From the NCBI GenBank assembly GCA_041741535.1, contig JBGSJV010000027.1:12837-76836 (forward strand): a stretch of 64,000 nt of DNA, in the 5' to 3' direction. The translations under genes and the position numbers were made by a program. Of the stretch, positions 42,069-63,354 are shown in pieces (position 1 is the stretch's first letter; the number at the start of each line of letters is the position of its first letter). The notes beneath the pieces are model-generated. The model did not search any database. It saw only the letters and a list, made by a program, of their open reading frames with translations, and had not been told where the DNA came from. Origin of the DNA: Pirellulaceae bacterium (lineage in GTDB: Bacteria; Planctomycetota; Planctomycetia; Pirellulales; Pirellulaceae).

Positions 42069-42626
42069 ATGTCCGAAGGTAAGACGACCATTCTGGTCGA
42101 GAGCTGGTTAAAACCCCTGCAAAACCCGGATTCCGATCAAGGTCGGCAGGCACGCAATGAGCTGATTGAGCATTCGCATCGACGGATGAAAGCGATGTGT
42201 CACAAGATGTTCTTTTCGTCGTTGAAGAGTAGCGGGGTCGTCGACTGGGAGGACGTCTACCAGGAGGCGGCACTAAAACTCTGGAAAGCTCTGGCTGATG
42301 CAAAACCTGACAGTGTCCGACAATACTTCGGACTCGCGACGAAAAAAATTCAAGAAGTCTCAAAGGACATGTGTCGCAAATACGTGCGAGATCTACCCGA
42401 ATTGACGGCCGCGGATGCATCGCACAGTCCGGTGACTGCTGCCATGTGGACCGAATTTCATGAGAAGGTGAAAGCGCTAGATGATGACTTGCGTGAAACC
42501 TTTGAGCTCTTGTGGTATCACGGATTGACTCAAAAAGAAGCGGCAGCGATTCTGGAGGTGGACGAGTCCACGGTCAAACGCCGCTACGGTCGAGCCAAAG
42601 AGAAGATGGTCGACTTCGTTTTGTGA
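42069..42626 (+). CDS. ECF-type sigma-70 family RNA polymerase sigma factor
   Basis: The region 2-like segment (VDWEDVYQEAALKLWKAL) and the region 4 HTH (LTQKEAAAILEVDESTVKRRYGRAKEKM) are recognisable. AAGGAG lies 8 nt upstream of the ATG. Confidence 0.75.
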   Translation: MSEGKTTILVESWLKPLQNPDSDQGRQARNELIEHSHRRMKAMCHKMFFSSLKSSGVVDWEDVYQEAALKLWKALADAKPDSVRQYFGLATKKIQEVSKDMCRKYVRDLPELTAADASHSPVTAAMWTEFHEKVKALDDDLRETFELLWYHGLTQKEAAAILEVDESTVKRRYGRAKEKMVDFVL

Positions 42627-42789
42627 TGCAACATCCTTCGAAAAAATGCTGCCGTGAACAAAACGCTGCCCGCAAATTGAAACGGCCATCGCTATAACAA
42701 TTGAAGCGTCGCGAGTTTCCGAGGGGAAAGGCGGGGTTTAGAGGCGTTACATATGTCCGCGCGGTTCTGTTGATGCAGGGAGTTGTTCT

Positions 42790-45700
42790 ATGTTTGAAAA
42801 TGAGAAACCCGATTCTTTGTCTGATTTGTGGGAATTGCGTCAAAAACAGAATGCTCCCCCAACGTCGTCGGATATGAATGGCGGATCGCCGGAATCAGAA
42901 CCGCAGGTAGTGGAGCGTGCGGCCAAACGAAAATTGTTCGACAGCGTGTTTGGACCCGATCTGGACACCATCCCGAACCGGCCCGACGAGATCGGTGAGT
43001 TCTGCAACGGCCGCTACAAAGTCGAAGCATTATTTGACGAAGGGGGCCTCGGGGCGCTTTATTTGGCACGCGATACAGAGTTGGGGCGATTGGTTATTGT
43101 GAAAGCGATTCGCGCCTCCCATTCGGACGACCACGACAGCCAACGACAATTCGTCAACGAGGCCGCGATTACCGGCCAATTGGAACACCCCGGAATCGTG
43201 CCAATTTACGGTTTCGGCCGTGACCAACACCGGCGACCGTATTACACAATGCAGAAGATCAAAGGAACGAAACTGAGCGAGGAGATCCGTCAATTTCATG
43301 AGCATCGCGCCAACGACGGTGGACACATCAAAGCGTTCCAAAGGCTGCTGGAAGATTTTCGATCTGTCTGTTTGACCATTCATTTCGCACATAGCAGGAA
43401 TGTAATCCACCGAGATATCAAGCCTGATAACATCATGGTGGGCAAGTTCGGCGAGGTACTGGTCATCGACTGGGGTCTGGCAAAGCAGATTTCGGCGACG
43501 GATAGTCTCTCGGCGCCTGCTCGCGATATGCCACAGGTCGACGAATTTGAGCCGATTGCAGTTCCCAATGCTTTTCAGACCCGTCACGGGGCGGTCAAGG
43601 GCTCACCGATTTATATGAGCCCCGAACAAAGCGAAGGCAGCACGGCGAAAATCGGGCCGGCCAGCGACATCTATGGACTGGGCGCGACCCTGTACCAAGT
43701 AGTCACGGGTCGCCCGCCGTTTGAGGGCTCGAGTCAAGAGGTCCTGTTGCAAGTCAAAGAGGGGAAAGTGAGGCCGCCCAGTCAAGTTGCAGCCGACGTT
43801 CCTTTGGCGCTCGAGGCAATCTGCTTGAAAGCCATGCAACGCGATCCAGATCAGCGTTACCAAACGGCCAAGGATCTAGCGGAAGACGTCGAATGCTTCC
43901 TGGCTGGCGAGCCCGTCAGTGCGTACAACGAACCTTGGACCGACACAGTCCAGCGTTGGGGGCGACGGAATAAAACTCTGGTCGCGAGCACCATAACATT
44001 CTTTATGGTGGTTTTAGTGGCTTTGGTAAGCACTTCAGTGTTGTTGACCAAGTATAACGCTGACCTGTTCATCGCGAAAAATGCAGCAGAAACGGCAACG
44101 ACGGCGGAACAGCAGCGAGCGAACGAACTCGAAAAATCGCTGTATGTCAACCAAATCATGCTCGCCCAAGCCGCTTGGAATGAACCTGACTTGCATCGGA
44201 CGTCCGACATTCTGGACGCTACCACACTCGGCCGAAGATCACTGGAATGGAACTATGCGAAACGACTCGTTACGCGAGTCAACGATCTGGCATGGAACCA
44301 GCCGCCGGCGATTGAGCCAACCTGGATTAATAGTTTGACTTCAAGTGCAAATGGAGCCTGGTTGATGGCGACCTTCGAGCAAGAGAGTGCCTTCGAACCT
44401 GGAAAGTTTCACGAACCAATCAAGGTGATTCCAACAACCGACAATGTCTCTCGCGTTCCAAAGCTCTCCTTGATTAGTTTGGCGGCAACATTTGGGGTTC
44501 CGGCCCAGATTCTCTGTTTTAGCCCGAGCGGCGACGAAGTACTGTGCCGAGTGCCCAGCGAGAATGGCGGCACTGAACGACAATACCGTCTCGCACTCGT
44601 GGGAATCCAAACGGGACAAGCCATCTGGCAAACCGAACCACTGACCGACGACAGCACCAGCATCTTCAAGGCAGGCTTTCTGATGCCAGAACCAATTGCC
44701 GATCCATTGAAATCTCCGCAGGTTGGGGAGTCGCCCGATCGTCAGTCAGGATCGCAGATCGTCGTTATGACAGACCCGCAAGTAATATCTCCAGAGCTGG
44801 GGACAACTGGCCGCGTCGCTCGAATAGAATTTCGCGATGCGCTTACCGGAGGGTTTCTAAAGACATTCGAAACTAATACCAATATTGTTGCTGAGCGAGC
44901 GTGCTTCAGTCCCAATGGGCAGCGAATCGCGTTGATGGACATGCTGAACGTTACGGTGTTTTCGGTCATCGCTGACGATTCTCCCCAAACGCTGACCGGG
45001 GACAACGGGTTCTTCTTCTGCGATGTAGCGTTTAGTCCTGACGCATCACTCATGGCGACGGCCAGTGCCGATCATGCCGTACGGATCTGGGATGCGGTCA
45101 GCGGTAGTTCGATCCAGGTACTATGGGGAATGCGCAAGCGGGTTCGTTGCCTGGCGTTTGATCCAAGCGGGAATAGGATTGCCGCGTGTGGCGAAGAAGG
45201 CGCTATCCGTATTTGGGATCTGAAGGACGGAAAACTGTTGAACGTACTGCCTACGAAAGATACGGAAACATATACGATCACATTTAGTCACGATGGCTCC
45301 CAGATTTACTCTGGAGGCAGCGACGGAGTCATTCGCCATTACGACTTGGATGAACCTCCCGTTGCCAGGACCATTCAGCACGAAAACCGTGTGTCCCAAG
45401 TTCAATTAAACTCTCAGGGGGACACGATAGCGGCGATCATCGGATGGGCAGAAAACAGTAAAGTATGTGTCTATGATCGGCAAAGTGCGCGGCTTAAGTT
45501 CGAGACTGACCTGTACGATGCTCGTTATCCGTCGGAAGCACTCTTTGTCGGTGATATTGACTTCAGTCCCGATGGGAAAACGCTGGCGATCGGTGGTGAC
45601 AATGTTGTGCATCTGGTGGATGCAGATACCGGGGCCAAACGCTGGGAGCACCGAGGTCTGGAAGGTCGGTTGAAATTCACTTCCGATGGGAGACATCTGA

Positions 45701-46494
45701 TCGCATCGCGAAAAAGGCGTTTTTTCATTCAGGTGATCAAGGAAGAAGCACTGTTGGATCGAGTTCTCGGAGCCGAAGCGAAAGAAGTCATTGGAGAGGT
45801 TGTGCAGAATTGGGAAGAACGGACACTCGATAAGAGGTTGTGGTACGATGATGGAGACGAAAAGATCTTGCAGTACTTAGCGAAGGACCCTGGCAACGAA
45901 CAACTGATTGCATTGATCACCAGTAATGCTCGAAGTGCACAGGTGACTGTAGACGTCTCCGCCGGGAAAATCCAAAAGGTGCTCGATTGCGACGCCGTTT
46001 TTGGCAACGCAATTGCACTTCATCCGAGTTTGCCAGTCATCGCTGTCGCCGAAAACGACAGAGTCAGCTTGCGGGATATCGATTCGGGTAAGTCCTTGTC
46101 TCAGCTTGAAATAGGCGTGGAACGACCGACACACCTGGCATTCAGTCCAGACGGCAACCGTTTGGTCCTCTCATCTGAATGGGAAAGCACCGTGGCGGTT
46201 GTCGACATTGAGAGTGGAACAGCGGCCTTTCGTCTCGTCGGGCATGTCGGTGGTGTCATGCATGCAAGTTTTTCGTTTGATGGCAAGCGTATTCTGACTT
46301 GTGCGACCGATGGAAAACTTCGGATTTGGGATGCTGACAGCGCGACTCTGTTATGGGTCATCGATGAATCTCAAATGCCACTGAACTCATTGTCGGTCAG
46401 TAGCGATGGCCACTACCTAGTGGCTGGAAGCGGCCAGCGCAATGGAGTCGGCGGCGGATCAATCTTGTTATGGGACTTGGAACCGGAGAAATAG
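42790..46494 (+). CDS. Ser/Thr protein kinase - TM helix - WD40 beta-propeller protein
   Basis: GGLGALYLARD, VIVKAI, HRDIKPDNIMV, DWGLAK, GSPIYMSPEQ. TM helix LVASTITFFMVVLVALVSTSVLL. WD40-like repeats: AVRIWDAVSG, AIRIWDLKDG, VIRHYDLDE, LRIWDADSA. Confidence 0.9.
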   Translation: MFENEKPDSLSDLWELRQKQNAPPTSSDMNGGSPESEPQVVERAAKRKLFDSVFGPDLDTIPNRPDEIGEFCNGRYKVEALFDEGGLGALYLARDTELGRLVIVKAIRASHSDDHDSQRQFVNEAAITGQLEHPGIVPIYGFGRDQHRRPYYTMQKIKGTKLSEEIRQFHEHRANDGGHIKAFQRLLEDFRSVCLTIHFAHSRNVIHRDIKPDNIMVGKFGEVLVIDWGLAKQISATDSLSAPARDMPQVDEFEPIAVPNAFQTRHGAVKGSPIYMSPEQSEGSTAKIGPASDIYGLGATLYQVVTGRPPFEGSSQEVLLQVKEGKVRPPSQVAADVPLALEAICLKAMQRDPDQRYQTAKDLAEDVECFLAGEPVSAYNEPWTDTVQRWGRRNKTLVASTITFFMVVLVALVSTSVLLTKYNADLFIAKNAAETATTAEQQRANELEKSLYVNQIMLAQAAWNEPDLHRTSDILDATTLGRRSLEWNYAKRLVTRVNDLAWNQPPAIEPTWINSLTSSANGAWLMATFEQESAFEPGKFHEPIKVIPTTDNVSRVPKLSLISLAATFGVPAQILCFSPSGDEVLCRVPSENGGTERQYRLALVGIQTGQAIWQTEPLTDDSTSIFKAGFLMPEPIADPLKSPQVGESPDRQSGSQIVVMTDPQVISPELGTTGRVARIEFRDALTGGFLKTFETNTNIVAERACFSPNGQRIALMDMLNVTVFSVIADDSPQTLTGDNGFFFCDVAFSPDASLMATASADHAVRIWDAVSGSSIQVLWGMRKRVRCLAFDPSGNRIAACGEEGAIRIWDLKDGKLLNVLPTKDTETYTITFSHDGSQIYSGGSDGVIRHYDLDEPPVARTIQHENRVSQVQLNSQGDTIAAIIGWAENSKVCVYDRQSARLKFETDLYDARYPSEALFVGDIDFSPDGKTLAIGGDNVVHLVDADTGAKRWEHRGLEGRLKFTSDGRHLIASRKRRFFIQVIKEEALLDRVLGAEAKEVIGEVVQNWEERTLDKRLWYDDGDEKILQYLAKDPGNEQLIALITSNARSAQVTVDVSAGKIQKVLDCDAVFGNAIALHPSLPVIAVAENDRVSLRDIDSGKSLSQLEIGVERPTHLAFSPDGNRLVLSSEWESTVAVVDIESGTAAFRLVGHVGGVMHASFSFDGKRILTCATDGKLRIWDADSATLLWVIDESQMPLNSLSVSSDGHYLVAGSGQRNGVGGGSILLWDLEPEK

Positions 46495-46652
46495 GTGCAA
46501 ATAGCTCTCTGGCACCGCTCAAAAAGGAGCGTACCGGTTCGGGCAGTACACGAACCAAATATTTCTGCCCCAAATTGGCGGCCCGGTTCGCTTGTTCCAT
46601 GGAGCGGGGGCTTTCAAACTAGCCAGACCACCTTTTTCACAGGAACAACGCC

Positions 46653-47162
46653 ATGTACAGTAAACCCCGTTTTATTCTAGCTGCGGTTATTCTGATCGCG
46701 TCGATATCGACAATATCGACCTCGAGGGCAGACGACTTCGTAGTTGATGACAATACCTACGCGGCGATTGCGTACTCTCAGGCGACCGGACGTTACGGAT
46801 ACGCCTACGACTATCGTTCGCGAAAGTCGGCAGAACAAGCCGCCGTTCGCAATTGCAAAGCGGACGATGCCAAGGCAGTTTGTTGGGTAAATGCTGGATG
46901 GTGTGCCCTGGCCTTGGGAGATGATCAAAAGTGTTATGGTACAGGCTACACTTATGGTAATGGAGCGACACACAGCGAGGCGAGCCGCCAAGCTGTCTTC
47001 GATTGCCAGAAACGAACGACGGGAGCCCATGTAGCCGTATTCCTGCTTTCCGATGGACAACTCGTTTTTACTGTCAACAGCGATGAGTCGAACACGAAGC
47101 AGGTCGAAGAATCGGTGAAAGCTGACCCTGTACCGTCTTCAGGCAGTCCACAGTCGAAGTGA
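46653..47162 (+). CDS. Secreted DUF4189 domain protein
   Basis: Signal peptide, then YAAIAYSQATGRYGYAYDYRSRKSAEQAAVRNCK...CALALG...YGTGYTYG...EASRQAVFDC, which is the DUF4189 pattern. Confidence 0.7.
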   Translation: MYSKPRFILAAVILIASISTISTSRADDFVVDDNTYAAIAYSQATGRYGYAYDYRSRKSAEQAAVRNCKADDAKAVCWVNAGWCALALGDDQKCYGTGYTYGNGATHSEASRQAVFDCQKRTTGAHVAVFLLSDGQLVFTVNSDESNTKQVEESVKADPVPSSGSPQSK

Positions 47163-47324
47163 CGATCTGGGAATCGGACCCCATGCGTTAGCTGGAGGTT
47201 GCAACCCGATCGGGTACAATCAAACGTGACTTCATATTCGTCAAAGCAAAATATGCTGTGGATTTGCTCCTGCAGCAGTCGATTGCGTTTGGAATACACT
47301 TCTTTGTCTAAGTGCGAGTGCGAC

Positions 47325-50300
47325 ATGTACAAGAGAAAAACTGATCGCGACGATGCACGGCGCGAACTCCAGAGAATCCTGCTTGACGAAGAAGCCGACG
47401 ACCCAACCGCGCCGCCGAATGCCCTGTTATCATCAACGGCATACTATATCTTGCCAGAATTCTCAAATCTCGTTCCACGACTCCGCACGATCGTCGCTGC
47501 ACATTCCGACCGCAACCTGCGGATTCGCGCTGCCGAAGCATTGGTGTTGTGGGGAGAGCCGAGCGGTAATTCACTTGCGATGTTGATTGATTTCCTGAGT
47601 TCCAACTTTCGGCGAGAAGAACGCATCGCTGCCATTCAGGCGTTAGGACACATTGGTCCTCCCGCTGCTTGCGCGATTCAGCCGCTGGTCCAGTTGTTGA
47701 GTGATGGCGACGCCGAGATTCGATCCACCAGCCTCCAATCATTGCTGTTGATCCGACCGGAACCTGACCCAGCCGGGCGTCTGGTCGATTTCCTATTCAA
47801 GCAAGAACTCGATGCCAATGAAGCGATCCGCCTACTTGTGGCTATGGGGAGACCAGTTGTGAAGCAACTCACGCAAAAATTGGAGTTGGAACGAAACGAG
47901 GATCGACATCTTGCGATCAACGCTCTCTCGCAGATTGGTTGGGCGCCGCCGGATGCGATTGCGACTATTTTGGCGTCGTTTCAGTTCGAATACTGCTGGA
48001 ATTCACTACTTGATCGGGGGCGATTATTTGCTCCTGATCGGCGAATGGAGAGTTTTTTCTGGTTCGATCAACCAGAGGTCGCGATGGCACATGCCATTCA
48101 CCATCCGGAGGTCTTAGTCCGCCGACCGGTGACGTCAATGCTAGCCCATTGGTACGCGCCCCAACAAGCGGATCTGTTACCTGCACTGCTGTCCTCAGCG
48201 CAGGATGTTGATCATGAAGTTCGTCAGAATTCGGTACGATCATTGATCCGATGGGCACATCGTGAACCGTCACATTGGGAGCCGATTTTGCCGCTTCTGC
48301 TGCAGGCTGTCCGAGATTCGTCGGTTCTCGTGCGTCGCAATGTCCTCGAGAATCTCTATTTAATGAAGGAACGACCTTCGGATCGTGATGCGTTGTTGGA
48401 GGTATTGTCAGACGTTGATCCCGATGATCGGTTGCGATCCGATGCCGACACCGAACGGCGGGCTCTTGCCCTCGATTTTGATGCCCGCATTCAAGATCTG
48501 ATCGATGCAGTCAAAACATCCGTAGAATTGGATGAGAGTGCGGTCAGTCACCTACGAAGGCTGGGACCGGCAGCTAGGGCTGCCATGCCATGCCTTGTTG
48601 CGCGCTTGGGGCAAGAAACAGATTCCCGCTATCGTAGCAGGCTGGGATATGCGATCGCGGCAATTAATCCTCAACTGGCGATCATCCGTGACCTGTTGGA
48701 CGACGACGACCCAGAAGTTCGGTTCTTGACGCTTGCTGGTTTGCAATCATCGGGGCAGCCATTGGATGAGCTAAAGCCACTGATTCTTATTCGCCGTTCA
48801 GACGACGATGCTTCAGTGCGGCACGAAGCGGCGACGCTGTTGTGGTCGTTGGACCAGGACGTTGCACCTTATCTGAGGGTACTCGTTGACATAATGCAAC
48901 AACAACCGCTTTATACGTGCAAAGTTCGAGTACTATTCAATGGTGCACCACTCGATTGCTTGCGTGACGATTGTTGGCCTGAGGTGACGGACGAACTCCT
49001 CAAGCTAGCGCATTCCAATACTGCGGCAATCGCTCAAATCGCGTTGATTCTTGAGGAAGATAAACGACAGAGCTTGCACATGCTGCGACTGAACTGGGAG
49101 TTGTTCCATAACGTCAGCATCGTCTCAGACGTTGCTCGTGGCTTGGGCGGTGATTTTCATCATTGTATTGCAAGTGCCGAATTGCTGCATCGCATCGGTT
49201 GTCAAGCTACTGCCGCAGTACCCGAACTACGCGGTCAACTCGGTGCAGATTACTATTTGTACCGACTTCATGCTCTGCAAGTGCTCCAGCAGATCGGGCC
49301 TGCCGCTGAAATGGCTCTGGGCGATGTCGTCCATGTCTTGAATTGGGGCACAACGAACGCAGCAAACGATGAAGAAGGATTTTGCGAAGACGCAGTGCGA
49401 GCTGAAGCCGCAAGTACAATCGGCTGTATTGTACCTGAACTGAGCGACCTCGTACCGATTCTGAAGTTGATCGCTGGCAATCCATACGTACGCTCGACCC
49501 TGGCGCGTGTTGCTGAGACCGATTCCGTTGAGGTGGTGAAATCGATGTTGTTGGCGCTCGCGAAACGTCACAGCATTGCGCCCTCAATGACTAATACGAC
49601 AGACAGCAAGCAGCAGCCGACAGTGTGTGCGATGGATGTCGAAGAATTGGTCCGTACGCTGCAAGATGAACAATCGGCACATCGCAATGGCGCAGCACTC
49701 GCTTTGGCAAATCTGGGGCCAGCGGCTGCCATGGCGATACCGCACCTCGCATTCCTGTTGAGTGAATCCCAATCGACTGCCTTGCGCGACACCGTGATCG
49801 TTGCGCTGGGACGTTTTGGAGCCGCCGCTGTTGCGCCACTCCAAGAGTTGATTGGACACAGTGATTGGATCGTGCGACTGGAAGCAGCGGAGGCATTGCA
49901 CCGCACAGAAGCTGTGCCAGAGTTTGAATTGCCTTCGATCCTGGCGCTGCTCGACAACGTCGATGGCAGTGATCCTATGTGTCACCAACGACAACTTGCT
50001 CCCGTAACGTTTCGACGAATTCTCAATCAGATATTCAACTTAGTCAATTCTCCTCTTAGCGAACACATATTAAGTGACGCATCGCGGCGGCTGCTGGGTC
50101 CGTTCAGCATGCTCATCCAGGCTCGGGGTTGGCATCTGCGCGACTGCGCAATTGGCAACCTGGGTCGCTTCGGTCGTAAAGCAGAGCCTCTCGTGCCCCT
50201 AGTACTGGACGCCTTGCATGATTCAGATTGGTTGGTGCGACAGGCAGCGCTCTACACCATAGAAAAGATTGCGACACCCACCACGGAAGTCATTGCGGCG

Positions 50301-57082: not shown

Positions 57083-59182
57083 ATGATGCGGTCGAAATTC
57101 GTGCGTCCGATATTGCTCCTGCTCGTGTTACCCATTGCCGTCGTTTGTGTTTGGTTCGTAAGCCGAATCATGGGCGGAACGGATGTTTCAGAGCTTTACC
57201 CACCTGCCGCTTTTGCTCCAGTCCCACAGGATTTCCCCAGGATCATTGCTTTATTAGAAGCCCCGTCCAAGTCCAACGAAGTTGAATGGAAGGCCTACGT
57301 GGAGCAATTTGAGGCGATCAATGAGTACTTGATGAATTCGGGAGCAGCGCAACGGTCCACTGACGAGGAGCGAGAGGTAATTCATGCTGATATCAAACGG
57401 GAGTTCGCAAAATCGCGAGAACGTGCGACTCATATTCTATCAAAAAACCTTGATTCAATACCAGCTCTGATTGCATTAGCTAGGGCGGAGGCGTTTGGCG
57501 ACGGAAACCTGCCTCAGGGGCTCTTCTTAATCCGCCAAGCTCGTCGCATCTGCGAATCGCGTGGAATTGCCAACTCAGCGGATGCAGATGCCCGCGAATG
57601 GTATTTGCGGATAATGCACCAAGAATACGATATGTTGGGTCGACTCGACCGACGACTAGAGCAACTGGAAGTTGTGAATCGCATGGAGTCGATTTACGAA
57701 CCATTGCCAGTGCTAAAAGTCTGGCCGCTAATCAAGCTTAAGAAATATGACGAAGCTGCGGAGGCAACTCGGTTGGCAGACGAGACGGGACGATTCGCAG
57801 CGACGGTCTTAAACGCTCGCTGTGCGATGGCGTGGGAAATGCAACAAAGAAACGAGGCGTATGATGCAGGCTCAGCGATGATCGAGGCGCACGGCGATAG
57901 CCCGGTGCATTGGAAGAATCATGGCGAAGCCGCCTTGGGCGTTTTTCGTTTTGACGAAGCGGAGAAGGCTTTTCTGAAGTCCACCACATTGAGTCAAACG
58001 GGACTCTCTAGCACTGCCTACAATGATTTAACGGTTCTGTACCTTCAACAAGGTCGTATAGCGGAGGCAATCGACGCGATCAAGAACGCCAACCGACAGC
58101 GGGCCAGTCGAGAACCGAGCAACTTGCAACAAGACCAAGCGACAACGGACTTGTCCAAAGCGATGTTGATGATAGTCTTGGGACGGGGAGATGATGCGAT
58201 TCGTCACGCGCGCTCGGCTTATGAACTGCCCGATCGAGGTGGCAATACAAGCGAAGACGCCAGCGTCCTGAGGCTCAGTTGCGCATTGGGATACGCAGCG
58301 GCATTGCGATTACAGCGTGAACAGCAATATGAAGCTGCAAATTCGTCACTGCTGCCCACACTGAATTTCGATGTTTTGCTTTTCGACCACAAGTCCCGCA
58401 ATCTAACCGACGTGCAGCTACTCTGCAGCACTCTCCGTCCGCACCTTGGTGGTGGACCGGGAATCAGCAAGGGCATTCCTTCCTGGCTACGCGTTTCTGT
58501 AATACAATTTTTCCCGCCAGTTATCGCTGCTGAGGCGGTCCGTCAAGTTCGCGAAGTGGAAGACCATCCGCTAGCGATCCCCTATCTCGATGCGATTGAA
58601 GCCGAAGTCTGTCTGCGTCTGGGAGACTATGAGACAGCGTCCTCGCTGGCGAAACAGTCACTTGAGCAACTGCCTGCTCAAGGGGAAAAGCTTTTATGCG
58701 GTCGAGTTGCACTGGTTGGTGCCCAAGCCGCGTTTCTTTCCGGGGATGTCTCTTCGGCATGGCCACTATTTCAACGAGCACTACAAGATTTTCCTACAGC
58801 CTTTCGCCTGCTGGGCGTCGCATTGCCTGTTCGAATTGAGCATGATGAGCAAAAGGGCTCCGCGTTATTAGCTAGAGCTGTCGGCCGGTCCCGCCGCTTT
58901 CGACCAGACGCGAGTGGTTTTGTGTTCACATTCAATCAGGGCGACGGAATGGTTGATTGCAATCTAACAAGCCCCAATGGTTCACAAATCTTCGCGGAAT
59001 CGATTAAACTTGTTGATGGCGAGCCCGATGCGATTGGCCAAGCGCTCGAACGTATTCACGATCGCTTGCTCGCGCCTGCAATCGACCTGACGCAGTCCGA
59101 CATGAGTTCGCTTGACGGTTCGCCCATTGCCGCCCGCAGTCGCGAAATGATTGATCATTTACTGAAACCTAAATCGCCTTAG
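57083..59182 (+). CDS. Membrane-anchored TPR-repeat protein
   Basis: N-terminal TM helix FVRPILLLLVLPIAVVCVWFV. TPR-like helical repeats throughout (e.g. AYNDLTVLYLQQGRIAEAIDAIKNA). AGAGGA upstream of the ATG. Confidence 0.7.
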   Translation: MMRSKFVRPILLLLVLPIAVVCVWFVSRIMGGTDVSELYPPAAFAPVPQDFPRIIALLEAPSKSNEVEWKAYVEQFEAINEYLMNSGAAQRSTDEEREVIHADIKREFAKSRERATHILSKNLDSIPALIALARAEAFGDGNLPQGLFLIRQARRICESRGIANSADADAREWYLRIMHQEYDMLGRLDRRLEQLEVVNRMESIYEPLPVLKVWPLIKLKKYDEAAEATRLADETGRFAATVLNARCAMAWEMQQRNEAYDAGSAMIEAHGDSPVHWKNHGEAALGVFRFDEAEKAFLKSTTLSQTGLSSTAYNDLTVLYLQQGRIAEAIDAIKNANRQRASREPSNLQQDQATTDLSKAMLMIVLGRGDDAIRHARSAYELPDRGGNTSEDASVLRLSCALGYAAALRLQREQQYEAANSSLLPTLNFDVLLFDHKSRNLTDVQLLCSTLRPHLGGGPGISKGIPSWLRVSVIQFFPPVIAAEAVRQVREVEDHPLAIPYLDAIEAEVCLRLGDYETASSLAKQSLEQLPAQGEKLLCGRVALVGAQAAFLSGDVSSAWPLFQRALQDFPTAFRLLGVALPVRIEHDEQKGSALLARAVGRSRRFRPDASGFVFTFNQGDGMVDCNLTSPNGSQIFAESIKLVDGEPDAIGQALERIHDRLLAPAIDLTQSDMSSLDGSPIAARSREMIDHLLKPKSP

Positions 59183-59253
59183 AATGGGTCGAGCGTTTCG
59201 AATAATTGCGCTGGCGCAATCTATTGCGTTCTCCCAAGAAGCGGAATATTTAC

Positions 59254-62200
59254 ATGGATTCGGATGAACTCGACGAAGATTTCCTTTCCTTTTCTTTCTC
59301 GAAAGAGTCGACTTCGAGCATTGAAGAATCGCATGTTCCCGGCAATTTTCATGAGCAATTAGGCATCCGGATTCAACCTACCTCTGCTGAGGAAATTCGG
59401 CGGGGATCGACGGGCGAGGTGCAAACAGATCGATTTTTTTCAGCCGATCGAAAGAGCTTTCATCCAAAAGGGCTGTTTAGCGAGAAGATCTTCGGACTCA
59501 CATCGGATTGGAAACATTCGAAAATCACTGCGCAGTCGCCGGTCGGTCATATTGAGTTGCCAGTCCCGATCGTGCATCCTCTTTTTCAAAGCGGACTTGC
59601 AGGTCAAGCGGTTCGTGCAGTGCTGGGGCTCACGGAAGCAGAACTCGATCAACTGTTAAAGGGTCGGGGGTGCATCGTCACCGAACCCATGGACTCCGGC
59701 TGGTCATGCGGAGCTATCGTAACCGTTGACGCGTACCAAACAGCCGCCAAGAAGTATGGGGCAGAATTGGCCCCTTTGTACCAAGCCGAGGCTGTTCGTT
59801 GGTTGATGGGGCGAGCCACGTTGGATGCGTCGATCGCACGCGCCAAACTCGTTTCTCCTGACAACAGCGGAGTTGTAAGACTAATTCGCAAATGGTTCGA
59901 GAGGGGGCGTAGACTCGATTCGGTGATACTCGACGTTCTCCCCGTCATTCCACCGGCGATGCGTGCGATGCAACGCACATCATCGGGCGAGCTGCGACGA
60001 CACGATCTCACCTGCTTGTACCAAAAAGTGGTTCGCCGATGCGGTCGAATTCGAAAGCTAGTCAAACTTGACGCTCCCTCGGTGATCTTAAGGAATGAGG
60101 CTCGATTGTTGCATGAGGCCGTCGAAAATTTGCTCGTGAAGCCGTCGAAGGCCGATGAATACAAATCCAAATCGCGGCGGTTTATGCCGCTTCTGCAAAC
60201 TCTACAAGAATCGCATACTCCACTGTGCGAAGAGGGACGCACGAAGACGTGGAAGAATTCATTGCGACTGCCTGCATCGCCCAATCCCAGACTGCGAATC
60301 ACTCAGTGCGGCCTACCGCGAACAGCAGCGACGTTGGAAATGCTGGCGCCAATTTGGCTGGCACATTGCAAACAGATCGGACTTGATCCGAGTCTTGCGG
60401 AATGGCAATTACGACATCCGACGGCATCGGTGTGGGAAGTGATCGCGTTGCAACTCCCCTGGCACGCCGTCTTGTTGAGACACGAAGCCCGTCGCAGCCA
60501 ATCGTCGCTACAGGCCTTTCAACCCAAGCTGGTGGACGGCAGAGCCATACAGCTTTCGCCGCTTGCACTTGGTGCCCTACGTGATGGTTCGATCCAAGAG
60601 GACGTATCGGTCTTTCTGCTCCAATCGCGATCGGCGTGCAGCCAAGCTTTGGTTGAGATGTTAGCAGATCAATGCCGCAACTCGGCCAGTGGTAAGCTTG
60701 CCTATCAACCAACCTTGGATATGGTAACGGGCTGCTTTTTAATGACACGCGATCCATTGCCGATTTCTGAGGGTTTGTCACGCAGACCACTTCACTTGGG
60801 TGCAATGGCGTTTCGCACGATGGCCGAAGTGCAGAGTGCATTGGACCAACGCGTGGTATCGTGGAATTCACCGATTTTGTTTTATCCCGATCGACGCACG
60901 TTCGCCGAACAACCGCTGTGCGAAAAAGTCTGTGCCCACCGTCAACGGATCGGGACGACTCCCGGTCGCGTGATCTTCAACGATTTCTTCCCTTTAGAAT
61001 TGCCATTCGTCAACTACCAGGTCACGGAAAACTCTTTCGGCGACCAACTGGAAGCGACTCACGCAATCATCGGCGCGACCCGCACACGCCAACTGATTGA
61101 CGCCCTGCAAGCGACTGCACTTGCCGTGCTAACGCAATCCGGTCTCAGCATCTCGATCTCGGATTTGGCACCTCCACGAAGGAAGCCAGCCATCCTCGAT
61201 GAAACAAACAAGCAGATCGTTAAATTGAAGAGGTATTATGATCGAGGAATTATCTGTTCAATGGAACGACTTAATCAAACCTACGATGCTTGGACGAATG
61301 CATCGAAGATCCTAAATCAGGAAATAGCAGTTCAGTTGTCAAGTGAGAGTAAGAATCCTACCTCGCTATTTGCGGCTGTGGCCCACACTACAAGCATGAC
61401 TTGGGTACAACACCTATGCGGCATGTTCGGTATAGTCCTGCCGCCCGATCGCAGAATTCACGAAGTAGCCGTTACCTCCAACTGGGGAGAAGGCTTGAGC
61501 GTCAGAGAATATTGGCAGGTTGCACTACAGACGCGGCACTTCACCATCGATGAATGCAAACGGACTGAAGACGCGGAGCAGATCACACGAACTTTGTTGA
61601 GTGCTTTGCAAGACGTCACCATTACCGTAGCCGATTGCGGAACGACCGAGGGAATCGAAAGGAGTAGCTCCGCTGACAAGAGCCTATCCGAAGCTTTAAT
61701 TGACCGAATCAGTTGCGAAGCGATTGTCAACCCAATCAACGGTGAGCCGCTCGTACAAGTTGGGGAACGGATCACGGCGGAAATCGTTCAAGGATTGGCT
61801 TCGCTCAACGTTCAGAAACTGCGTGTGCGTAGCCCTGCGACATGTGATTCCGAGCGAGGCATTTGCCAACAATGTTATGGTCGCAACCAATCGACGGGGG
61901 AATTGACTGAAATAGGCACATCGGTCGGTGTGAATGCCGCGTACGCCCTCGGGGAGTACGCCCACCATTTGCTGAATTGGTATAAGATTCGGGAATACCG
62001 AGCACCGCGGTTTGGATGGGTGAATGGAACAGAGCGTGCCGATTGCTCAGGGAATATTCAGTTCCAACTGCCGAGGACGGTTCGCAAACAAGATGGACGA
62101 ATTGTCGCACTGCAGCCTGGCAAAATATTAATACGAGATCGATATCGAATCCTGCAAGAGATCGCCGTTCCAGTTGGCGCCGAGGTTCTTGTCCGTAACG

Positions 62201-63354
62201 AAGCGGAAGTACGTCGCGATGACGAGATTTGTAAGTGGAATACAAATGGAATACCCCTGATCGCGGAAAACGCCGGCTCGATCATACTCCGTGATTTTGT
62301 TCCGGGAGATAATTGTCGATATTCGGATGACTCCGATACCAACAAGTTCGTCACATCTGATCTGACACGAGGGACATTGCGGCCGCGTGTCTTGATCCTC
62401 AATGCGGCCGGGCAACCGATCGAAGCGCATTACCTGGCTGACCATTCCGTTGTTGAGGTGGTTGACGGCCAGTCGGTGGCCGCGGGAGACATGCTCGCCC
62501 TGCAGCTCAATCGTTCGTCTCTATTGGAGGATCGCGCGTCAGAGGCTCAGACGGTATTTGGTTGGGAATTACAAGAATTGCTGGAAGCAGGTCCGACTCA
62601 TGAAACGGCGGTCTTGGCACCCTGCGACAGCGTCGTTTCTTCTGTTGAGCGAAAGGGAGAGCATCGAAAAGTTGTATTGCAAAATGTAGACCGCGAGGAA
62701 TTTGAATTTGTGTTGTCACGAAACGCCCATTTGCAAGTGATCGTTGGAGACGCGGTTAAACCAGGCGATCCGCTGACGGATTCTAGGCAAATCAACCCTA
62801 ACGATATCTTTCGTATCTTAGGGGTGGAGGCAGGTATTCTGTATCTGTTGGGAAGGCTTTCTCGATTGTTTGTAAAAAATCAAATCTCGATAGACAGCAA
62901 GCATATGGAGCTTGTGATTGGCAGGATGCTTTCCCGCGTCAAAATCGATCACCCAGGTGACACCGATTTTGTCGCAGGCGAGGTGATCGAACGCATCGAT
63001 TGGCGGAGAGAGAACGACCGGATTAACCAGTTTGTCCGCATCGCGTCTTCCGAGGCCTCCAAATCTACTGTTGATCAGATTGTTCGACGCGAGGCTTACG
63101 AACTTCTCGCCCGCGAACTGACTTCGCAGAACCAGGCGCCCCCAACCGTACGACGCTCGCGTCCGGCGAGGGCAGCGGCGCAGTTGACGAGTATTCAACA
63201 CCTTGTGAACCCGCACAAACAAGGACGGCGCTCAGGCGAATTCGACGTCGACGTTTTGGCCCGACTCGTGTTGGCTGGGGATGTCAGCTCCATAAACCGA
63301 TTAATAGATCTGATTGTGCGAACCAGCAATGGTGGTACGCGTTGCCGTCCATAA
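59254..63354 (+). CDS. Full-length RNA polymerase beta-prime (RpoC) paralog lacking the catalytic NADFDGD triad and N-terminal Zn ribbon (predicted pseudo-enzyme)
   Basis: Collinear RpoC landmarks: FHPKGLFSEKIFG, VGHIELPVPIVHP, VLPVIPPAMRA, ILRNEARLLHEAVENLL, RITQCGLP, LQAFQPKLVDGRAIQLSPL, ADCGTTEG + CDSERGICQQCYG, KHMELVIGRMLSRVKI. The catalytic loop reads RDGSIQE (60580-60600). The ATG at 59254 is the likely start within the track ORF that begins at 59206. Confidence 0.85.
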   Translation: MDSDELDEDFLSFSFSKESTSSIEESHVPGNFHEQLGIRIQPTSAEEIRRGSTGEVQTDRFFSADRKSFHPKGLFSEKIFGLTSDWKHSKITAQSPVGHIELPVPIVHPLFQSGLAGQAVRAVLGLTEAELDQLLKGRGCIVTEPMDSGWSCGAIVTVDAYQTAAKKYGAELAPLYQAEAVRWLMGRATLDASIARAKLVSPDNSGVVRLIRKWFERGRRLDSVILDVLPVIPPAMRAMQRTSSGELRRHDLTCLYQKVVRRCGRIRKLVKLDAPSVILRNEARLLHEAVENLLVKPSKADEYKSKSRRFMPLLQTLQESHTPLCEEGRTKTWKNSLRLPASPNPRLRITQCGLPRTAATLEMLAPIWLAHCKQIGLDPSLAEWQLRHPTASVWEVIALQLPWHAVLLRHEARRSQSSLQAFQPKLVDGRAIQLSPLALGALRDGSIQEDVSVFLLQSRSACSQALVEMLADQCRNSASGKLAYQPTLDMVTGCFLMTRDPLPISEGLSRRPLHLGAMAFRTMAEVQSALDQRVVSWNSPILFYPDRRTFAEQPLCEKVCAHRQRIGTTPGRVIFNDFFPLELPFVNYQVTENSFGDQLEATHAIIGATRTRQLIDALQATALAVLTQSGLSISISDLAPPRRKPAILDETNKQIVKLKRYYDRGIICSMERLNQTYDAWTNASKILNQEIAVQLSSESKNPTSLFAAVAHTTSMTWVQHLCGMFGIVLPPDRRIHEVAVTSNWGEGLSVREYWQVALQTRHFTIDECKRTEDAEQITRTLLSALQDVTITVADCGTTEGIERSSSADKSLSEALIDRISCEAIVNPINGEPLVQVGERITAEIVQGLASLNVQKLRVRSPATCDSERGICQQCYGRNQSTGELTEIGTSVGVNAAYALGEYAHHLLNWYKIREYRAPRFGWVNGTERADCSGNIQFQLPRTVRKQDGRIVALQPGKILIRDRYRILQEIAVPVGAEVLVRNEAEVRRDDEICKWNTNGIPLIAENAGSIILRDFVPGDNCRYSDDSDTNKFVTSDLTRGTLRPRVLILNAAGQPIEAHYLADHSVVEVVDGQSVAAGDMLALQLNRSSLLEDRASEAQTVFGWELQELLEAGPTHETAVLAPCDSVVSSVERKGEHRKVVLQNVDREEFEFVLSRNAHLQVIVGDAVKPGDPLTDSRQINPNDIFRILGVEAGILYLLGRLSRLFVKNQISIDSKHMELVIGRMLSRVKIDHPGDTDFVAGEVIERIDWRRENDRINQFVRIASSEASKSTVDQIVRREAYELLARELTSQNQAPPTVRRSRPARAAAQLTSIQHLVNPHKQGRRSGEFDVDVLARLVLAGDVSSINRLIDLIVRTSNGGTRCRP

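What the first reader, a model, noticed from the sequence alone, without database searches (positions are those of the whole stretch)
42069..63354. Ten co-directional genes link a sigma/kinase pair, HEAT/TPR scaffolds and a MoxR-DUF58-transglutaminase triad to the dead beta-prime
Seen in sequence: all ten ORFs from 42069 to 63354 are on the + strand, with no opposite-strand genes between them. Gaps are 37-384 nt and most genes have their own SD-like sequence. The order is ECF sigma, STK-TM-WD40, secreted DUF4189, HEAT (about 1020 aa), HEAT (408 aa), DUF58, TgpA-like transglutaminase, MoxR, TM-TPR, pseudo-beta-prime.

Established knowledge: MoxR/DUF58/TgpA is a recurrent triad, and ECF sigma/STK pairing is known in Planctomycetes.

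Inference: I know of no description of these modules combined with repeat scaffolds and an inactive RNAP subunit. One speculative reading is a transcription-targeting regulatory or conflict system in which the beta-prime mimic binds the sigma factor or core subunits, under kinase and AAA+ chaperone control.
Basis: inference. Interest (0 to 1): 0.8.

Follow-up and report, generated by a model that had tools for sequence, protein, structure and literature searches.

The report
Dead RNA-polymerase subunit copies beside sigma/kinase genes
A planctomycete genome carries two catalytically dead copies of the largest RNA-polymerase subunit next to a sigma factor, a receptor kinase, repeat scaffolds and a chaperone module; related genomes repeat parts of this pairing, which points to an undescribed way of controlling or guarding transcription.

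Summary
The ten + strand ORFs and their domain calls are real. Their shared direction is not special, because 34 of 39 ORFs in the window are on +.

The region is not one conserved ten-gene unit. Related loci show three layers:
- **A conserved quartet.** DUF58-like, TgpA-like transglutaminase, MoxR ATPase and TM-TPR are adjacent in the same order in all 7 intact loci; short contigs cut off part of it in two.
- **A sigma/kinase pair.** An ECF sigma lies within 10 kb of the quartet in all 4 loci with enough flank. The kinase-TM-WD40 gene accompanies it in 3 of them.
- **A dead beta-prime.** It follows the quartet only in the window and one relative. It has a full beta-prime fold but has lost the Mg site, bridge helix, trigger loop, switch 2 and the first zinc finger. 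It keeps the clamp helices and is under purifying selection (dN/dS about 0.24).

That second family sits after sigma, kinase-WD40 and HEAT genes in an unrelated 413-kb contig.

Across six dead-beta-prime loci, ECF sigma occurs in 4, kinase-WD40 in 3, HEAT in 4, and vWA or AAA+ in 4. DUF4189 is not conserved. I found no literature on such paralogs.

My best guess is a polymerase-core mimic that binds the sigma factor. An immune decoy is a serious rival.

The parts
42069..42626 (+). ECF sigma factor, 185 aa. Regions 2 and 4 are present and the sigma-2.2 motif is DWED (DAED-like).
   Evidence: Pfam and NCBIfam hits. Orthologues are 79% identical in L001 and 66% in L002; L003 is a 33-35% relative. 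Motif alignment.
42790..46494 (+). Receptor-type Ser/Thr kinase, 1234 aa. Layout: N-terminal kinase, one TM helix, C-terminal WD40 propellers.
   Evidence: Pkinase and WD40 hits. TM at 401-419. The catalytic Lys, HRD and DWG motifs are present. 50% identical to the L001 kinase, 31-32% to L003 and 39% (kinase part) to L019.
46653..47162 (+). Small secreted DUF4189 protein, 169 aa. Probably not part of the system.
   Evidence: Pfam DUF4189 at 2.7e-15. Signal-like N-terminus. No counterpart in any related locus.
47199..50390 (+). Large HEAT-repeat protein. The ORF is 1063 aa from a TTG start; the true start may lie downstream.
   Evidence: HEAT_2 at 2.3e-44. No orthologue in L001-L006. Repeat-level similarity only to the L019 and L007 HEAT proteins.
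50519..51745 (+). HEAT-repeat protein, 408 aa.
   Evidence: HEAT_2 at 2.6e-12. No orthologue in related loci.
52130..53452 (+). DUF58-like membrane-anchored protein, 440 aa, with two N-terminal TM helices. First gene of the conserved quartet.
   Evidence: Weak DUF58 hit plus signature motif. TM helices. Homologues in L001, L002, L003 and L005 at 32-53%. A 384-nt gap lies upstream.
53537..55804 (+). TgpA-like transglutaminase, 755 aa. It has 6+1 TM helices, Transglut_core with Cys-His-Asp, and DUF4129.
   Evidence: Pfam hits. TM helices and catalytic motifs GYCVH, DAHAW and PVDA. Conserved in all quartet loci.
55924..57045 (+). MoxR-class AAA+ ATPase, 373 aa.
   Evidence: AAA_3 at 1.3e-56 and AAA_lid_2. 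Walker A HPGSGKT and Walker B VLGDE. 61-81% identical across quartet loci.
57083..59182 (+). N-terminally membrane-anchored TPR scaffold, 699 aa. It is the marker gene of the quartet.
   Evidence: The family has only 12 proteins among 5.8 billion. In every intact locus the gene follows MoxR directly. The AF2 model has pLDDT 84 and shows a TPR superhelix plus a small C-terminal alpha/beta domain.
59254..63354 (+). Catalytically dead beta-prime paralogue, family 1, 1366 aa.
   Evidence: HMMER match to PDB beta-prime at E 9e-125 over residues 94-1257. Foldseek E 3e-76, TM 0.57. NADFDGD is replaced by RDGSIQE. Zn finger 1, switch 2, bridge helix, trigger loop and region H are lost; clamp helices and Zn2 are kept. 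dN/dS is about 0.24 against the L018 copy.
63494..64000 (-). 3' end (168 codons plus stop) of a second beta-prime paralogue, family 2. It is convergent with the first and cut by the window end.
   Evidence: Translation and tblastn. 62% identical to the C-terminus of P0176 (site GVEFSGE), against 38% or less for genuine beta-prime.

Best explanation
The region is a composite signalling locus, not a ten-gene operon.

**Shown**
- An ECF sigma factor is paired with a membrane-spanning Ser/Thr kinase. The kinase keeps its catalytic residues. Its WD40 propellers lie beyond the single TM helix, so they are presumably periplasmic.
- A conserved four-gene membrane module is present: DUF58-like, TgpA-like transglutaminase, MoxR AAA+ ATPase and TM-TPR.
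- Two full-length but catalytically dead paralogues of RNA polymerase beta-prime lie tail to tail at the 3' end.
- The dead copies keep the beta-prime architecture, the second zinc site and the basic clamp-helix hairpin. They have lost every catalytic and nucleic-acid-holding element.

**Inferred mechanism**
- The kinase senses an envelope or extracellular cue and controls the sigma factor by phosphorylation, as in the EcfP/PknT and EcfK/PknS systems.
- The dead beta-prime acts as a non-catalytic mimic of the polymerase core. It docks the sigma factor through its clamp helices, where the sigma's DWED motif would meet the basic helix. In effect it is the anti-sigma or sigma-holding partner that these kinase-linked sigma loci otherwise lack.
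- The MoxR/DUF58 pair may remodel or release such complexes at the membrane.
- The quartet is a separate, older module that this sigma/kinase pair accompanies. The dead beta-prime is a lineage-specific addition.
For: **Anatomy.**

**The dead copy keeps a beta-prime fold.** HMMER E 9e-125, AF2 model plus Foldseek TM 0.57.

**Loss of function is selective.**
- Only 171 of 415 invariant beta-prime positions are kept.
- Retention is lowest in region H (0.12), rudder/switch 2 (0.21), Zn1 (0.23), the lid (0.25), the bridge helix (0.29) and the trigger-loop C-terminal part with the jaw (0.32).
- Retention is highest in Zn2 (0.86). The clamp helices score 0.58 in the window copy, and R275, E295 and A302 are kept in E. 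coli numbering.

**The gene is functional.** It is under purifying selection: pN 0.17, pS 0.50.

**Sigma linkage.**
- The sigma keeps a DAED-like DWED motif, which contacts basic beta-prime residues according to PMC8999054.
- No anti-sigma domain was found in these loci.
- Kinase-linked ECF groups typically lack anti-sigma factors (PMC7826278).

**Recurrence.**
- L001 keeps sigma, kinase, quartet and dead beta-prime despite rearrangement.
- In L009 an ECF sigma is divergently adjacent to a family-1 copy.
- In L019 the order is sigma, kinase-WD40, HEAT, small gene, family-2 copy.
- An ECF sigma lies within 10 kb of the quartet in all four loci with enough flank; the kinase accompanies it in three.
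Against: - L007 and L008 carry family-1 copies with no sigma gene within 10 kb.
- L002 and L003 have sigma (and, in L003, the kinase) plus the quartet but no dead beta-prime. The copy is therefore dispensable for the core module.
- Planctomycetes average about 40 ECF sigma genes per genome (PMC7826278) and are rich in kinases and HEAT proteins. With only about five independent loci, chance adjacency is not excluded.
- A protein of 1366 aa is a costly anti-sigma.
- Zn finger 1, the lid and region H are degraded. From my own knowledge, these also touch sigma in the holoenzyme.
- Neighbours such as TIR, LRR, caspase, CHAT and trypsin genes, and an adjacent type I restriction-modification block, fit a conflict role better.
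- No shared ECF-type promoter motif was found.
- No interaction was modelled or measured.
Confidence: 0.35

Rival explanations
1. This is an immune or conflict system. The dead beta-prime is a decoy of the host polymerase that baits phage proteins targeting beta-prime or sigma, or it is an effector released on infection. The kinase, the MoxR/vWA remodeller, proteases and TIR or LRR partners would transmit or execute the response.
For: - The window cluster follows a type I restriction-modification block with Schlafen/AlbA_2 and DUF4357 genes.
- In L007 the family-1 copy is followed by a dead beta-prime fused to LRR repeats, with NADAR, toxin-antitoxin and giant TPR genes around it.
- L008 has a TIR protein two genes away plus a HEAT-vWA protein and an AAA+ ATPase.
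- L019 has trypsin-like and VIT-vWA genes next door.
- L003 and L006 put caspase genes in the slot after the TPR gene, and TPR-CHAT genes flank L001 and L003.
- The dead beta-prime is the fastest-evolving gene of the cluster: 42% identity against 50-81% for its neighbours.
- MoxR-vWA systems with caspase, trypsin, TPR, HEAT and propeller parts are proposed conflict systems in planctomycetes (PMC7159879).
Against: - PADLOC models hit only the generic kinase domain, plus one HEAT/ARM and one AAA+ (TRIP13) model weakly.
- The caspase and DUF4384 proteins carry signal peptides while the dead beta-prime does not, so the 'same slot' argument mixes compartments.
- No relatives occur in phage or plasmid collections.
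- The associated domain families are abundant in planctomycete genomes anyway.
- PMC7159879 mentions no RNA polymerase or sigma component.
Confidence: 0.25
2. The genes are neighbours without a shared function. A kinase-linked ECF sigma pair, a MoxR-DUF58-transglutaminase-TPR envelope module, HEAT proteins and beta-prime paralogues simply lie side by side in a strongly + biased region.
For: - Co-direction is a window-wide property.
- There are no operon signals beyond chance.
- DUF4189 and the HEAT genes are not conserved as orthologues.
- The quartet occurs with unrelated downstream genes such as PIN toxin-antitoxin or MsrA.
- Family-1 copies occur without the quartet.
- ECF sigma genes are frequent in the phylum.
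Against: - Sigma, kinase, quartet and dead beta-prime stay together in L001 although the order and strand of the sigma/kinase pair changed and all flanking genes differ.
- A sigma lies within 10 kb of the quartet in 4 of 4 informative loci.
- An independent dead-beta-prime family repeats the sigma / kinase-WD40 / HEAT context, and L009 repeats the sigma adjacency.
- By my rough estimate, taking a 10-15% chance of an ECF sigma within 10 kb, 4 of 6 loci is unlikely.
Confidence: 0.2
3. The dead beta-prime replaces the genuine subunit in a fraction of polymerase cores. The resulting inert polymerase, possibly with the ECF sigma, sits on promoters or titrates beta, alpha and omega. This would dampen transcription during stress or dormancy.
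For: - The whole 1200-residue beta-prime architecture, not just the clamp helices, is preserved under purifying selection.
- The Zn2/clamp and dock/funnel regions are the best conserved.
- Two different dead paralogues sit together in the window and in L007.
Against: - Region H is almost erased in family 1, with retention of 0.12.
- Switch 2, the rudder and the lid are degraded, so stable DNA loading is doubtful.
- No dead beta paralogue or other core-subunit gene is present in any locus.
Confidence: 0.1
4. The beta-prime-like ORF is a decaying duplicate (pseudogene) with no function.
For: All catalytic motifs are lost. The family is very rare: only two of its members turned up among 5.8 billion protein clusters.
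Against: - Intact ORFs of 1149-1366 codons are kept in six lineages at 32-69% identity.
- dN/dS is about 0.24.
- Family-specific motifs are conserved.
- The predicted fold is confident outside the degraded loops.
Confidence: 0.02

Closest known systems
Bacterial RNA polymerase beta-prime subunit (RpoC, TIGR02386)
   Same: Collinear homology over about 1160 residues. Same fold (Foldseek TM 0.57 to E. coli beta-prime). Second zinc site, clamp-helix hairpin, dock/funnel and a sandwich-barrel insertion are retained.
   Different: Scores 502 bits against the family cut-off of 963.5. The Mg-binding NADFDGD motif, NRAPTLHR, switch 2, bridge-helix signature, trigger loop, Zn finger 1 and region H are lost. 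Identity to any genuine beta-prime is only 28-30%. The gene is not next to rpoB. It cannot be the working subunit.
Ser/Thr-kinase-regulated ECF sigma factors (EcfP-PknT and EcfK-PknS of group ECF43; planctomycetal groups ECF59-62 and ECF217)
   Same: An ECF sigma is encoded next to a transmembrane Hanks-type kinase, with no anti-sigma gene.
   Different: The window sigma keeps an acidic DWED motif where ECF43 members have a phosphorylatable STTA-type motif, so it is not ECF43-like. No described group includes a beta-prime paralogue in its neighbourhood. Group assignment was not tested.
MoxR-DUF58-TgpA triads, including the Bifidobacterium PFNA cluster (kinase, FN3, MoxR, DUF58, transglutaminase) and Bat-type MoxR/DUF58/TPR operons
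   Same: Adjacent MoxR AAA_3 ATPase, DUF58-type protein and multi-TM transglutaminase. A TPR partner and a linked Ser/Thr kinase also have precedents (PMC8430577, PMC6803598).
   Different: There is no FN3 gene and no BatA/BatB-type vWA membrane proteins. The TPR partner belongs to a family of only 12 proteins. The linkage to an ECF sigma and to dead beta-prime genes is not part of those descriptions.
MoxR-vWA 'ternary' conflict systems of multicellular bacteria (Kaur, Burroughs, Iyer and Aravind 2020, PMC7159879)
   Same: A MoxR ATPase with a vWA-type partner, accompanied by TPR, HEAT or beta-propeller scaffolds and by caspase or trypsin peptidases in related loci. Such systems occur in planctomycetes.
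   Different: The defining third components (VMAP, iSTAND, FtsH pair or the propeller protein) were not identified here. The MoxR matches the classical AAA_3 model far better than the ternary-system model (1.3e-56 against 3.1e-10). That paper mentions no sigma factor or RNA polymerase.
Paralogue-derived mimics and inhibitors of the transcription machinery: archaeal TFS4 (PMC9501531 was listed but not read), Thermus Gfh1, and the sigma-mimic PhyR in partner switching (PMC8999054)
   Same: The logic is shared: an inactive copy of a transcription component, or a mimic of one, is used to regulate the genuine machinery.
   Different: Those are small factors or domains. Here the copy is the entire largest core subunit. 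There is no experimental evidence for this one. The comparison is by analogy, largely from my own knowledge.

Membership tests
RNA polymerase beta-prime (RpoC, TIGR02386) | Whole-protein score at or above the curated cut-off | tested here: not met
   502.4 bits against a cut-off of 963.5.
RNA polymerase beta-prime (RpoC, TIGR02386) | Mg-chelating NADFDGD aspartate triad | tested here: not met
   The motif is RDGSIQE in the window copy (D460G, D462I, D464E). It is also degenerate in L001, P0133, P0134 and P0135.
RNA polymerase beta-prime (RpoC, TIGR02386) | Bridge helix, trigger loop and switch 2 signatures | tested here: not met
   All three are replaced by unrelated sequence. Retention of invariant residues is 0.21-0.39 for family 1 (0.21-0.42 in the window copy).
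RNA polymerase beta-prime (RpoC, TIGR02386) | Overall beta-prime fold, with clamp helices and the second zinc site | tested here: met
   HMMER E 9e-125 over residues 94-1257. Foldseek E 3e-76, TM 0.57. RSPATC...C..CYG is kept.
MoxR-DUF58-TgpA triad | MoxR-class AAA_3 ATPase with intact Walker A and Walker B motifs | tested here: met
   AAA_3 at 1.3e-56. HPGSGKT and VLGDE motifs.
MoxR-DUF58-TgpA triad | DUF58 protein | tested here: inconclusive
   Pfam gives 16.3 bits against a cut-off of 23.4, and only profile positions 1-34 match. The signature motif and two N-terminal TM helices are present.
MoxR-DUF58-TgpA triad | Multi-TM transglutaminase with a Cys-His-Asp core and DUF4129 | tested here: met
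   Transglut_core at 3.2e-25 and DUF4129 at 3.2e-06. 6+1 TM helices and catalytic motifs.
ECF43-type phosphorylation-dependent sigma factors | Adjacent Ser/Thr kinase and no anti-sigma gene | tested here: met
   The kinase gene lies 163 nt downstream. No anti-sigma domain is present in the flanking ORFs.
ECF43-type phosphorylation-dependent sigma factors | Loss of the acidic DAED motif in sigma region 2.2, replaced by Ser/Thr | tested here: not met
   The window, L001 and L002 sigmas carry DWED. Only the L019 sigma (RVSD) and the L009 sigma (EETV) deviate.
Planctomycetal kinase-linked ECF groups (ECF59-62, ECF217) | Placement in one of these groups by the ECF classification models | not testable with these tools
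   No ECF group models were available. Only general sigma-70/ECF models were scanned.
MoxR-vWA ternary conflict systems (PMC7159879) | A system-specific third component (VMAP, iSTAND, double FtsH or the propeller protein) next to MoxR and vWA | tested here: inconclusive
   No such component was recognised by Pfam or PADLOC. The bpMoxR model hits at 3.1e-10 but far below AAA_3. VMAP and iSTAND profiles were not available.
Bifidobacterium PFNA cluster | An FN3-domain gene between the kinase and MoxR/DUF58/transglutaminase | tested here: not met
   No FN3 hit in any of the ten proteins.
Known anti-sigma factors | A recognised anti-sigma domain (for example ZAS or RskA-type) | tested here: not met
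   No anti-sigma Pfam or NCBIfam family hits the dead beta-prime or its neighbours. The proposed role is 'works like', not membership.

The most novel reading that the evidence does not exclude
Planctomycetes have evolved at least two families of full-length, catalytically dead RNA-polymerase beta-prime paralogues that act as mimics of the polymerase core. They would either hold ECF sigma factors under kinase and AAA+ control, which would be a new class of anti-sigma or sigma chaperone. Or they would serve as baits that detect phage proteins aimed at the host polymerase. The LRR-fused version in L007 would be an 'integrated decoy' in the style of plant immune receptors.
Probability: 0.4. Interest if true: 0.9.

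Novelty: categorically new. Interest (0 to 1): 0.8.

Why it matters
Beta-prime is among the most conserved proteins in biology. From my own knowledge it is treated as a single-copy marker gene. I found no report of a bacterial, catalytically dead, full-length copy of it.

Here such copies are shown to be real and to form more than one family. One copy is shown to be under purifying selection. They sit repeatedly beside ECF sigma factors, receptor kinases, HEAT scaffolds and AAA+/vWA remodellers.

- **If they bind sigma factors**, they would fill a known gap. Kinase-linked ECF sigma factors that keep their core-binding motif have no known means of being held inactive, because no anti-sigma factor is encoded with them. 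This would add 'core mimicry' to the known ways of regulating sigma factors.
- **If they are decoys**, they would be the first case, to my knowledge, of a bacterial immune bait built from the polymerase itself.

There is also a practical point. Such paralogues can confuse rpoC-based phylogenetic marker sets and genome-completeness estimates.

Tried and rejected
1. **Shared ECF-type promoter.** I compared the regions upstream of the sigma, kinase and DUF58-like genes in the window, L001 and L002. GGAACC-containing matches appeared, but at inconsistent spacing and at the rate expected by chance: about one 11-mer match with one mismatch per region pair. The sigma-70 promoter and terminator scans were below their shuffled controls.
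2. **Rfam scan of 40-64 kb.** Nothing found.
3. **First genome-contig scan, with the TPR alignment.** No confirmed locus. The source genome is therefore not among the species representatives.
4. **Metagenome scan with a family-specific N-terminal alignment.** It returned only genuine rpoC and short phage-like N-terminal beta-prime ORFs from gut and rumen samples.
5. **Extending the source contig.** Look-up of the window protein P0001 failed, so the sequence beyond 64000 could not be read.
6. **Last word-indexed protein search, with a five-sequence family profile.** It did not recover P0133-P0135. Their loci were reached directly instead.
7. **Phage or plasmid origin.** Only mis-filed genuine rpoC at about 26% identity.
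9. **PADLOC scan.** Apart from two weak hits (a HEAT/ARM model on HEAT1, TRIP13 on MoxR), only generic kinase matches.
10. **The 'variable effector slot after TPR' idea** (dead beta-prime in some loci, caspases in others). I weakened it because the caspases carry signal peptides and the dead beta-prime does not.
11. **The pseudogene reading.** Rejected by dN/dS.

Full report
**1. The observation**

The ten ORFs lie on the + strand at the stated coordinates.
- ECF sigma at 42069-42626.
- Pkinase plus WD40 at 42790-46494.
- DUF4189 at 46653-47162.
- HEAT at 47199-50390 and at 50519-51745.
- A weak DUF58 match at 52130-53452.
- Transglut_core plus DUF4129 at 53537-55804.
- AAA_3 MoxR at 55924-57045.
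- TPR at 57083-59182.
- A beta-prime homologue at 59206/59254-63354.

Hydropathy and motif checks add detail.
- The kinase has its catalytic Lys, HRD and DWG motifs. One TM helix lies at 401-419, followed by the WD40 part.
- The DUF58-like protein has two N-terminal TM helices.
- The transglutaminase has 6+1 TM helices and an intact Cys-His-Asp triad.
- MoxR has Walker A and Walker B motifs.
- The TPR protein has an N-terminal membrane anchor.
- The beta-prime-like protein has an acidic N-terminus with no signal peptide.

Co-direction is not distinctive. A greedy tiling puts 34 of 39 window ORFs on the + strand, and GC skew is positive along the whole window. Promoter-like and terminator-like sites are no more frequent than in shuffled sequence, and Rfam finds nothing. 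Strand and spacing therefore do not establish an operon. The only structural hint is that the gaps from the DUF58-like gene to the beta-prime-like gene are short (37-119 nt) and are preceded by a 384-nt gap.

**2. The beta-prime-like protein is a dead but maintained paralogue**

It aligns with solved beta-prime chains over residues 94-1257 at E 9e-125. An AlphaFold model of residues 75-1274 has a mean pLDDT of 71.5. It matches E. coli beta-prime with Foldseek E 3e-76 and TM 0.57.

I aligned it with 116 genuine beta-prime sequences.
- It keeps only 171 of the 415 positions that are at least 95% conserved.
- NADFDGD reads RDGSIQE, corresponding to D460G, D462I and D464E.
- The first zinc finger is deleted.
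- NRAPTLHR, the switch-2 GKQGRFR segment, the bridge-helix signature, the trigger loop and C-terminal region H are all replaced.

Retention differs by region in family 1.
- Lowest: region H (0.12), rudder/switch 2 (0.21), Zn1 (0.23), the lid (0.25), the bridge helix (0.29) and the trigger-loop C-terminal part with the jaw (0.32).
- Highest: the second zinc site (0.86) and dock/funnel (0.58).
- The clamp helices score 0.58 in the window copy, with the equivalents of R275, E295 and A302 and the run of basic residues kept.
- The structure model predicts the clamp-helix hairpin and a long bridge-like helix. Its confidence drops exactly at the lid, rudder/switch 2, the former catalytic loop and the trigger loop.

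The gene is not decaying. Against a 69%-identical copy in a Rhodopirellula sp. MAG (L018), pN is 0.17 and pS is 0.50, which gives dN/dS of about 0.24.

**3. How rare it is, and the second paralogue**

A word-indexed search of 5.8 billion protein clusters found only the window protein and one relative at 42% identity. Everything else was genuine beta-prime at 30% identity or less.

An exhaustive profile search of 1.84 billion representatives added three more family members, P0133, P0134 and P0135, at 479-534 bits. The next hits were at 372 bits. None of the three has the catalytic motif or the first zinc finger.

In that same list, 18 of the 148 best representatives lack NADFDGD. One group among them carries G[VL]EF[NS]GE at the site (P0176, P0144, P0267). 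P0172, which clusters with them by similarity, reads DIIFEGE.

The window itself holds a member of this second family. On the − strand, 63494-64000 encodes the last 168 codons of a beta-prime-like protein that runs off the window. This fragment is 62% identical to the C-terminus of P0176 and at most 38% identical to genuine beta-prime.

Phage and plasmid collections hold no relatives, only genuine rpoC at about 26% identity. Four literature searches found no description of dead bacterial beta-prime paralogues.

**4. Neighbourhood tests**

*Seeded on the dead beta-prime, family 1.*
- **L001** (42% identity). The order is DUF58-like, transglutaminase, MoxR, TPR, a 144-aa gene, the dead beta-prime and a 163-aa gene. 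The kinase-WD40 and ECF sigma genes then follow on the opposite strand.
  - The seven shared genes are 42-81% identical to the window's.
  - DUF4189 and both HEAT genes are absent, and the outer flanks differ.
- **L007.** The family-1 gene is followed directly by an 1814-aa dead beta-prime fused to LRR repeats. NADAR, a metallophosphatase, small HEAT proteins, a toxin-antitoxin pair and giant TPR genes lie around it. There is no sigma and no MoxR within 10 kb.
- **L008.** A TIR protein lies two genes away, together with a 1488-aa HEAT-vWA protein and an AAA+ ATPase.
- **L009.** An ECF sigma is divergently adjacent. An M48 peptidase and three AIM24 genes follow.

*Seeded on family 2.*
- **L019** (413-kb contig). 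The order is ECF sigma (divergent), kinase-WD40, a 735-aa HEAT protein, a 159-aa gene and the dead beta-prime. A trypsin-like gene and a VIT-vWA gene come next.
- Its kinase is 39% identical to the window kinase over the kinase part. Its sigma is 26% identical. Its HEAT protein is similar only at the repeat level.

*Seeded on the TPR protein.* Its family has 12 members in the 5.8-billion-cluster collection.
- The DUF58-like / transglutaminase / MoxR / TPR genes are adjacent in the same order in every intact locus. On the two shortest contigs the quartet is cut off at its 5' end: the DUF58-like gene is incomplete in the JGI contig, and only the end of the gene before MoxR is left in L006. An eighth contig, L004, is a fragmented assembly.
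- An ECF sigma lies within 10 kb in all four loci with enough flank: the window, L001, L002 and L003. The kinase-WD40 gene accompanies it in three.
- The gene after TPR varies:
  - a dead beta-prime in the window and, after a small inserted gene, in L001;
  - signal-peptide DUF4384-caspase genes in L003 and L006;
  - unrelated genes in L002, L005 and the JGI contig.

*Counts.* Across the six dead-beta-prime loci, ECF sigma appears in 4, kinase-WD40 in 3, HEAT proteins in 4, and vWA/DUF58 and/or AAA+ genes in 4. In the window the sigma lies about 17 kb from the dead beta-prime, so it is counted through the quartet.

Planctomycetes average about 40 ECF sigma genes per genome (PMC7826278). I estimate the chance of one falling within 10 kb at roughly 10-15% per locus. 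On that estimate the recurrence is suggestive. It is not proof, because only about five loci are independent.

**5. What it most likely is**

The locus combines three things:
- a kinase-linked ECF sigma pair;
- an older, conserved membrane-associated MoxR module;
- lineage-specific dead beta-prime paralogues.

The sigma keeps an acidic DWED motif at the position where ECF sigma factors contact basic residues of beta-prime. No anti-sigma gene is present. Kinase-linked ECF groups are known to lack anti-sigma factors, and how those that keep the acidic motif are held in check is unknown (PMC8999054 and PMC7826278).

The selective retention of the clamp helices on a fold that is otherwise stripped of activity therefore suggests a polymerase-core mimic. 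It would dock the sigma factor, with the kinase and perhaps the MoxR/DUF58 remodeller controlling capture or release. I give this a probability of 0.35. Every binding step is inferred.

The main rival (0.25) is an immune or conflict role, with the dead subunit as decoy or effector. The evidence for it is:
- the adjacent type I restriction-modification / Schlafen block;
- the LRR fusion, TIR, caspase, CHAT and trypsin neighbours;
- the fast divergence of the dead copy;
- the resemblance to MoxR-vWA conflict systems (PMC7159879).

Against it:
- PADLOC gave no system-specific match.
- The exported caspases and the cytoplasmic dead subunit sit in different compartments.

The other readings are chance juxtaposition (0.2), an inert 'pseudo-core' polymerase (0.1) and a plain pseudogene (0.02, contradicted).

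**6. Comparison with what is known**

- It is not a member of the working RpoC family. It fails the score cut-off, the catalytic triad, the bridge helix and the trigger loop.
- The sigma is not ECF43-like, because its acidic motif is retained.
- The MoxR and transglutaminase genes meet the triad definition. The DUF58 call is below threshold but carries the signature motif.
- The PFNA cluster of bifidobacteria shows that kinase plus MoxR/DUF58/transglutaminase linkage has precedent, but its FN3 gene is absent here.
- The ternary conflict systems share parts, but their defining third components were not recognised.
- The nearest conceptual analogues are small paralogue-derived regulators of the polymerase (TFS4, Gfh1) and sigma mimicry by PhyR. 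None of them involves a whole core subunit. Those comparisons rest largely on my own knowledge.

**7. Verdict**

The sigma/kinase pair, the MoxR module and the dead beta-prime are linked in two rearranged loci. The sigma / kinase / HEAT / dead-beta-prime theme recurs with an independent family.
- The ten genes are not one conserved system, and DUF4189 does not belong.
- The underlying object is two families of dead beta-prime paralogues with recurrent sigma/kinase/scaffold/AAA+ company. One copy was tested and is under purifying selection. The object appears undescribed and would surprise transcription specialists.
- Interest 0.8.

Noticed in passing
window 63494-64000 (− strand): The 3' end of a second beta-prime-like gene, convergent with the first and cut by the window end. 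It is 62% identical to P0176 (dead site GVEFSGE) and at most 38% identical to genuine beta-prime.
   Followed up: yes
window 29047-40788 (+ strand): A type I restriction-modification system (HsdM, HsdS, HsdR) interleaved with an ion-channel-like gene, DUF4357/RAMA and a Schlafen AlbA_2/HATPase_c_4 protein, followed by a YgjP metallopeptidase. This defence-island-like block lies directly upstream of the sigma gene.
   Followed up: partly
window 24368-28308: An MqsA-like HTH protein and a ParA/CbiA-TPR protein on +, and a GGDEF cyclase on −, which is one of the few − strand genes. GC drops to about 0.50 at 24-28 kb and again at 34-36 kb. This may mark acquired DNA.
   Followed up: no
L001 9446-9880: A 144-aa gene inserted between the TPR gene and the dead beta-prime carries an HCEMGLSRS motif, the signature of Cys-based protein phosphatases. 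It has a weak DSPc hit and is absent from the window.
   Followed up: partly
L007 10001-19499: Two dead beta-prime genes lie in tandem. The second (1814 aa, site DIIFEGE) is fused to C-terminal LRR repeats. NADAR, a metallophosphatase, small HEAT proteins and a DUF433/DUF5615 pair lie nearby.
   Followed up: partly
L008 6138-16105: A TIR-domain protein (764 aa) lies two genes from a family-1 dead beta-prime. A 1488-aa HEAT-vWA protein and an AAA+ ATPase lie downstream.
   Followed up: no
L003 12267-16210; L006 4038-7137; L002 1-1289: Signal-peptide DUF4384-caspase (Peptidase_C14) genes occupy the position after the TPR gene in L003 and L006. A homologous DUF4384 gene sits beside the sigma gene in L002.
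   Followed up: partly
proteins P0136, P0150, P0153, P0170, P0253, P0274, P0279 (representative search): Further beta-prime homologues with degenerate catalytic motifs, for example DAGFNGE, NTELGGD and DADFDGA. In all, 18 of the 148 best representatives lack NADFDGD, which suggests several independent dead lineages. Some could be sequencing or assembly errors.
   Followed up: partly
L010, L012, L013, L015-L017 (human gut and other JGI metagenome contigs): ORFs of up to about 460 aa (several cut by the ends of their contigs) that resemble the N-terminus of beta-prime and have no zinc finger. They are probably split polymerase subunits of phages and are unrelated to the planctomycete families.
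   Followed up: no
window 57083-59182 (TPR protein): The model shows a TPR superhelix plus a small C-terminal alpha/beta domain (residues 581-662). The two closest copies (window and L001) share an identical C-terminal peptide, DLTQSDMSSLDGSPIAAR. Only generic TPR matches appear in the PDB.
   Followed up: partly
L004 (ENA contig_65983): A copy of the quartet region is broken into many short ORFs, including fragments of transglutaminase, the AAA lid, TPR and a kinase. It looks like a frameshift-rich long-read assembly rather than real decay.
   Followed up: no
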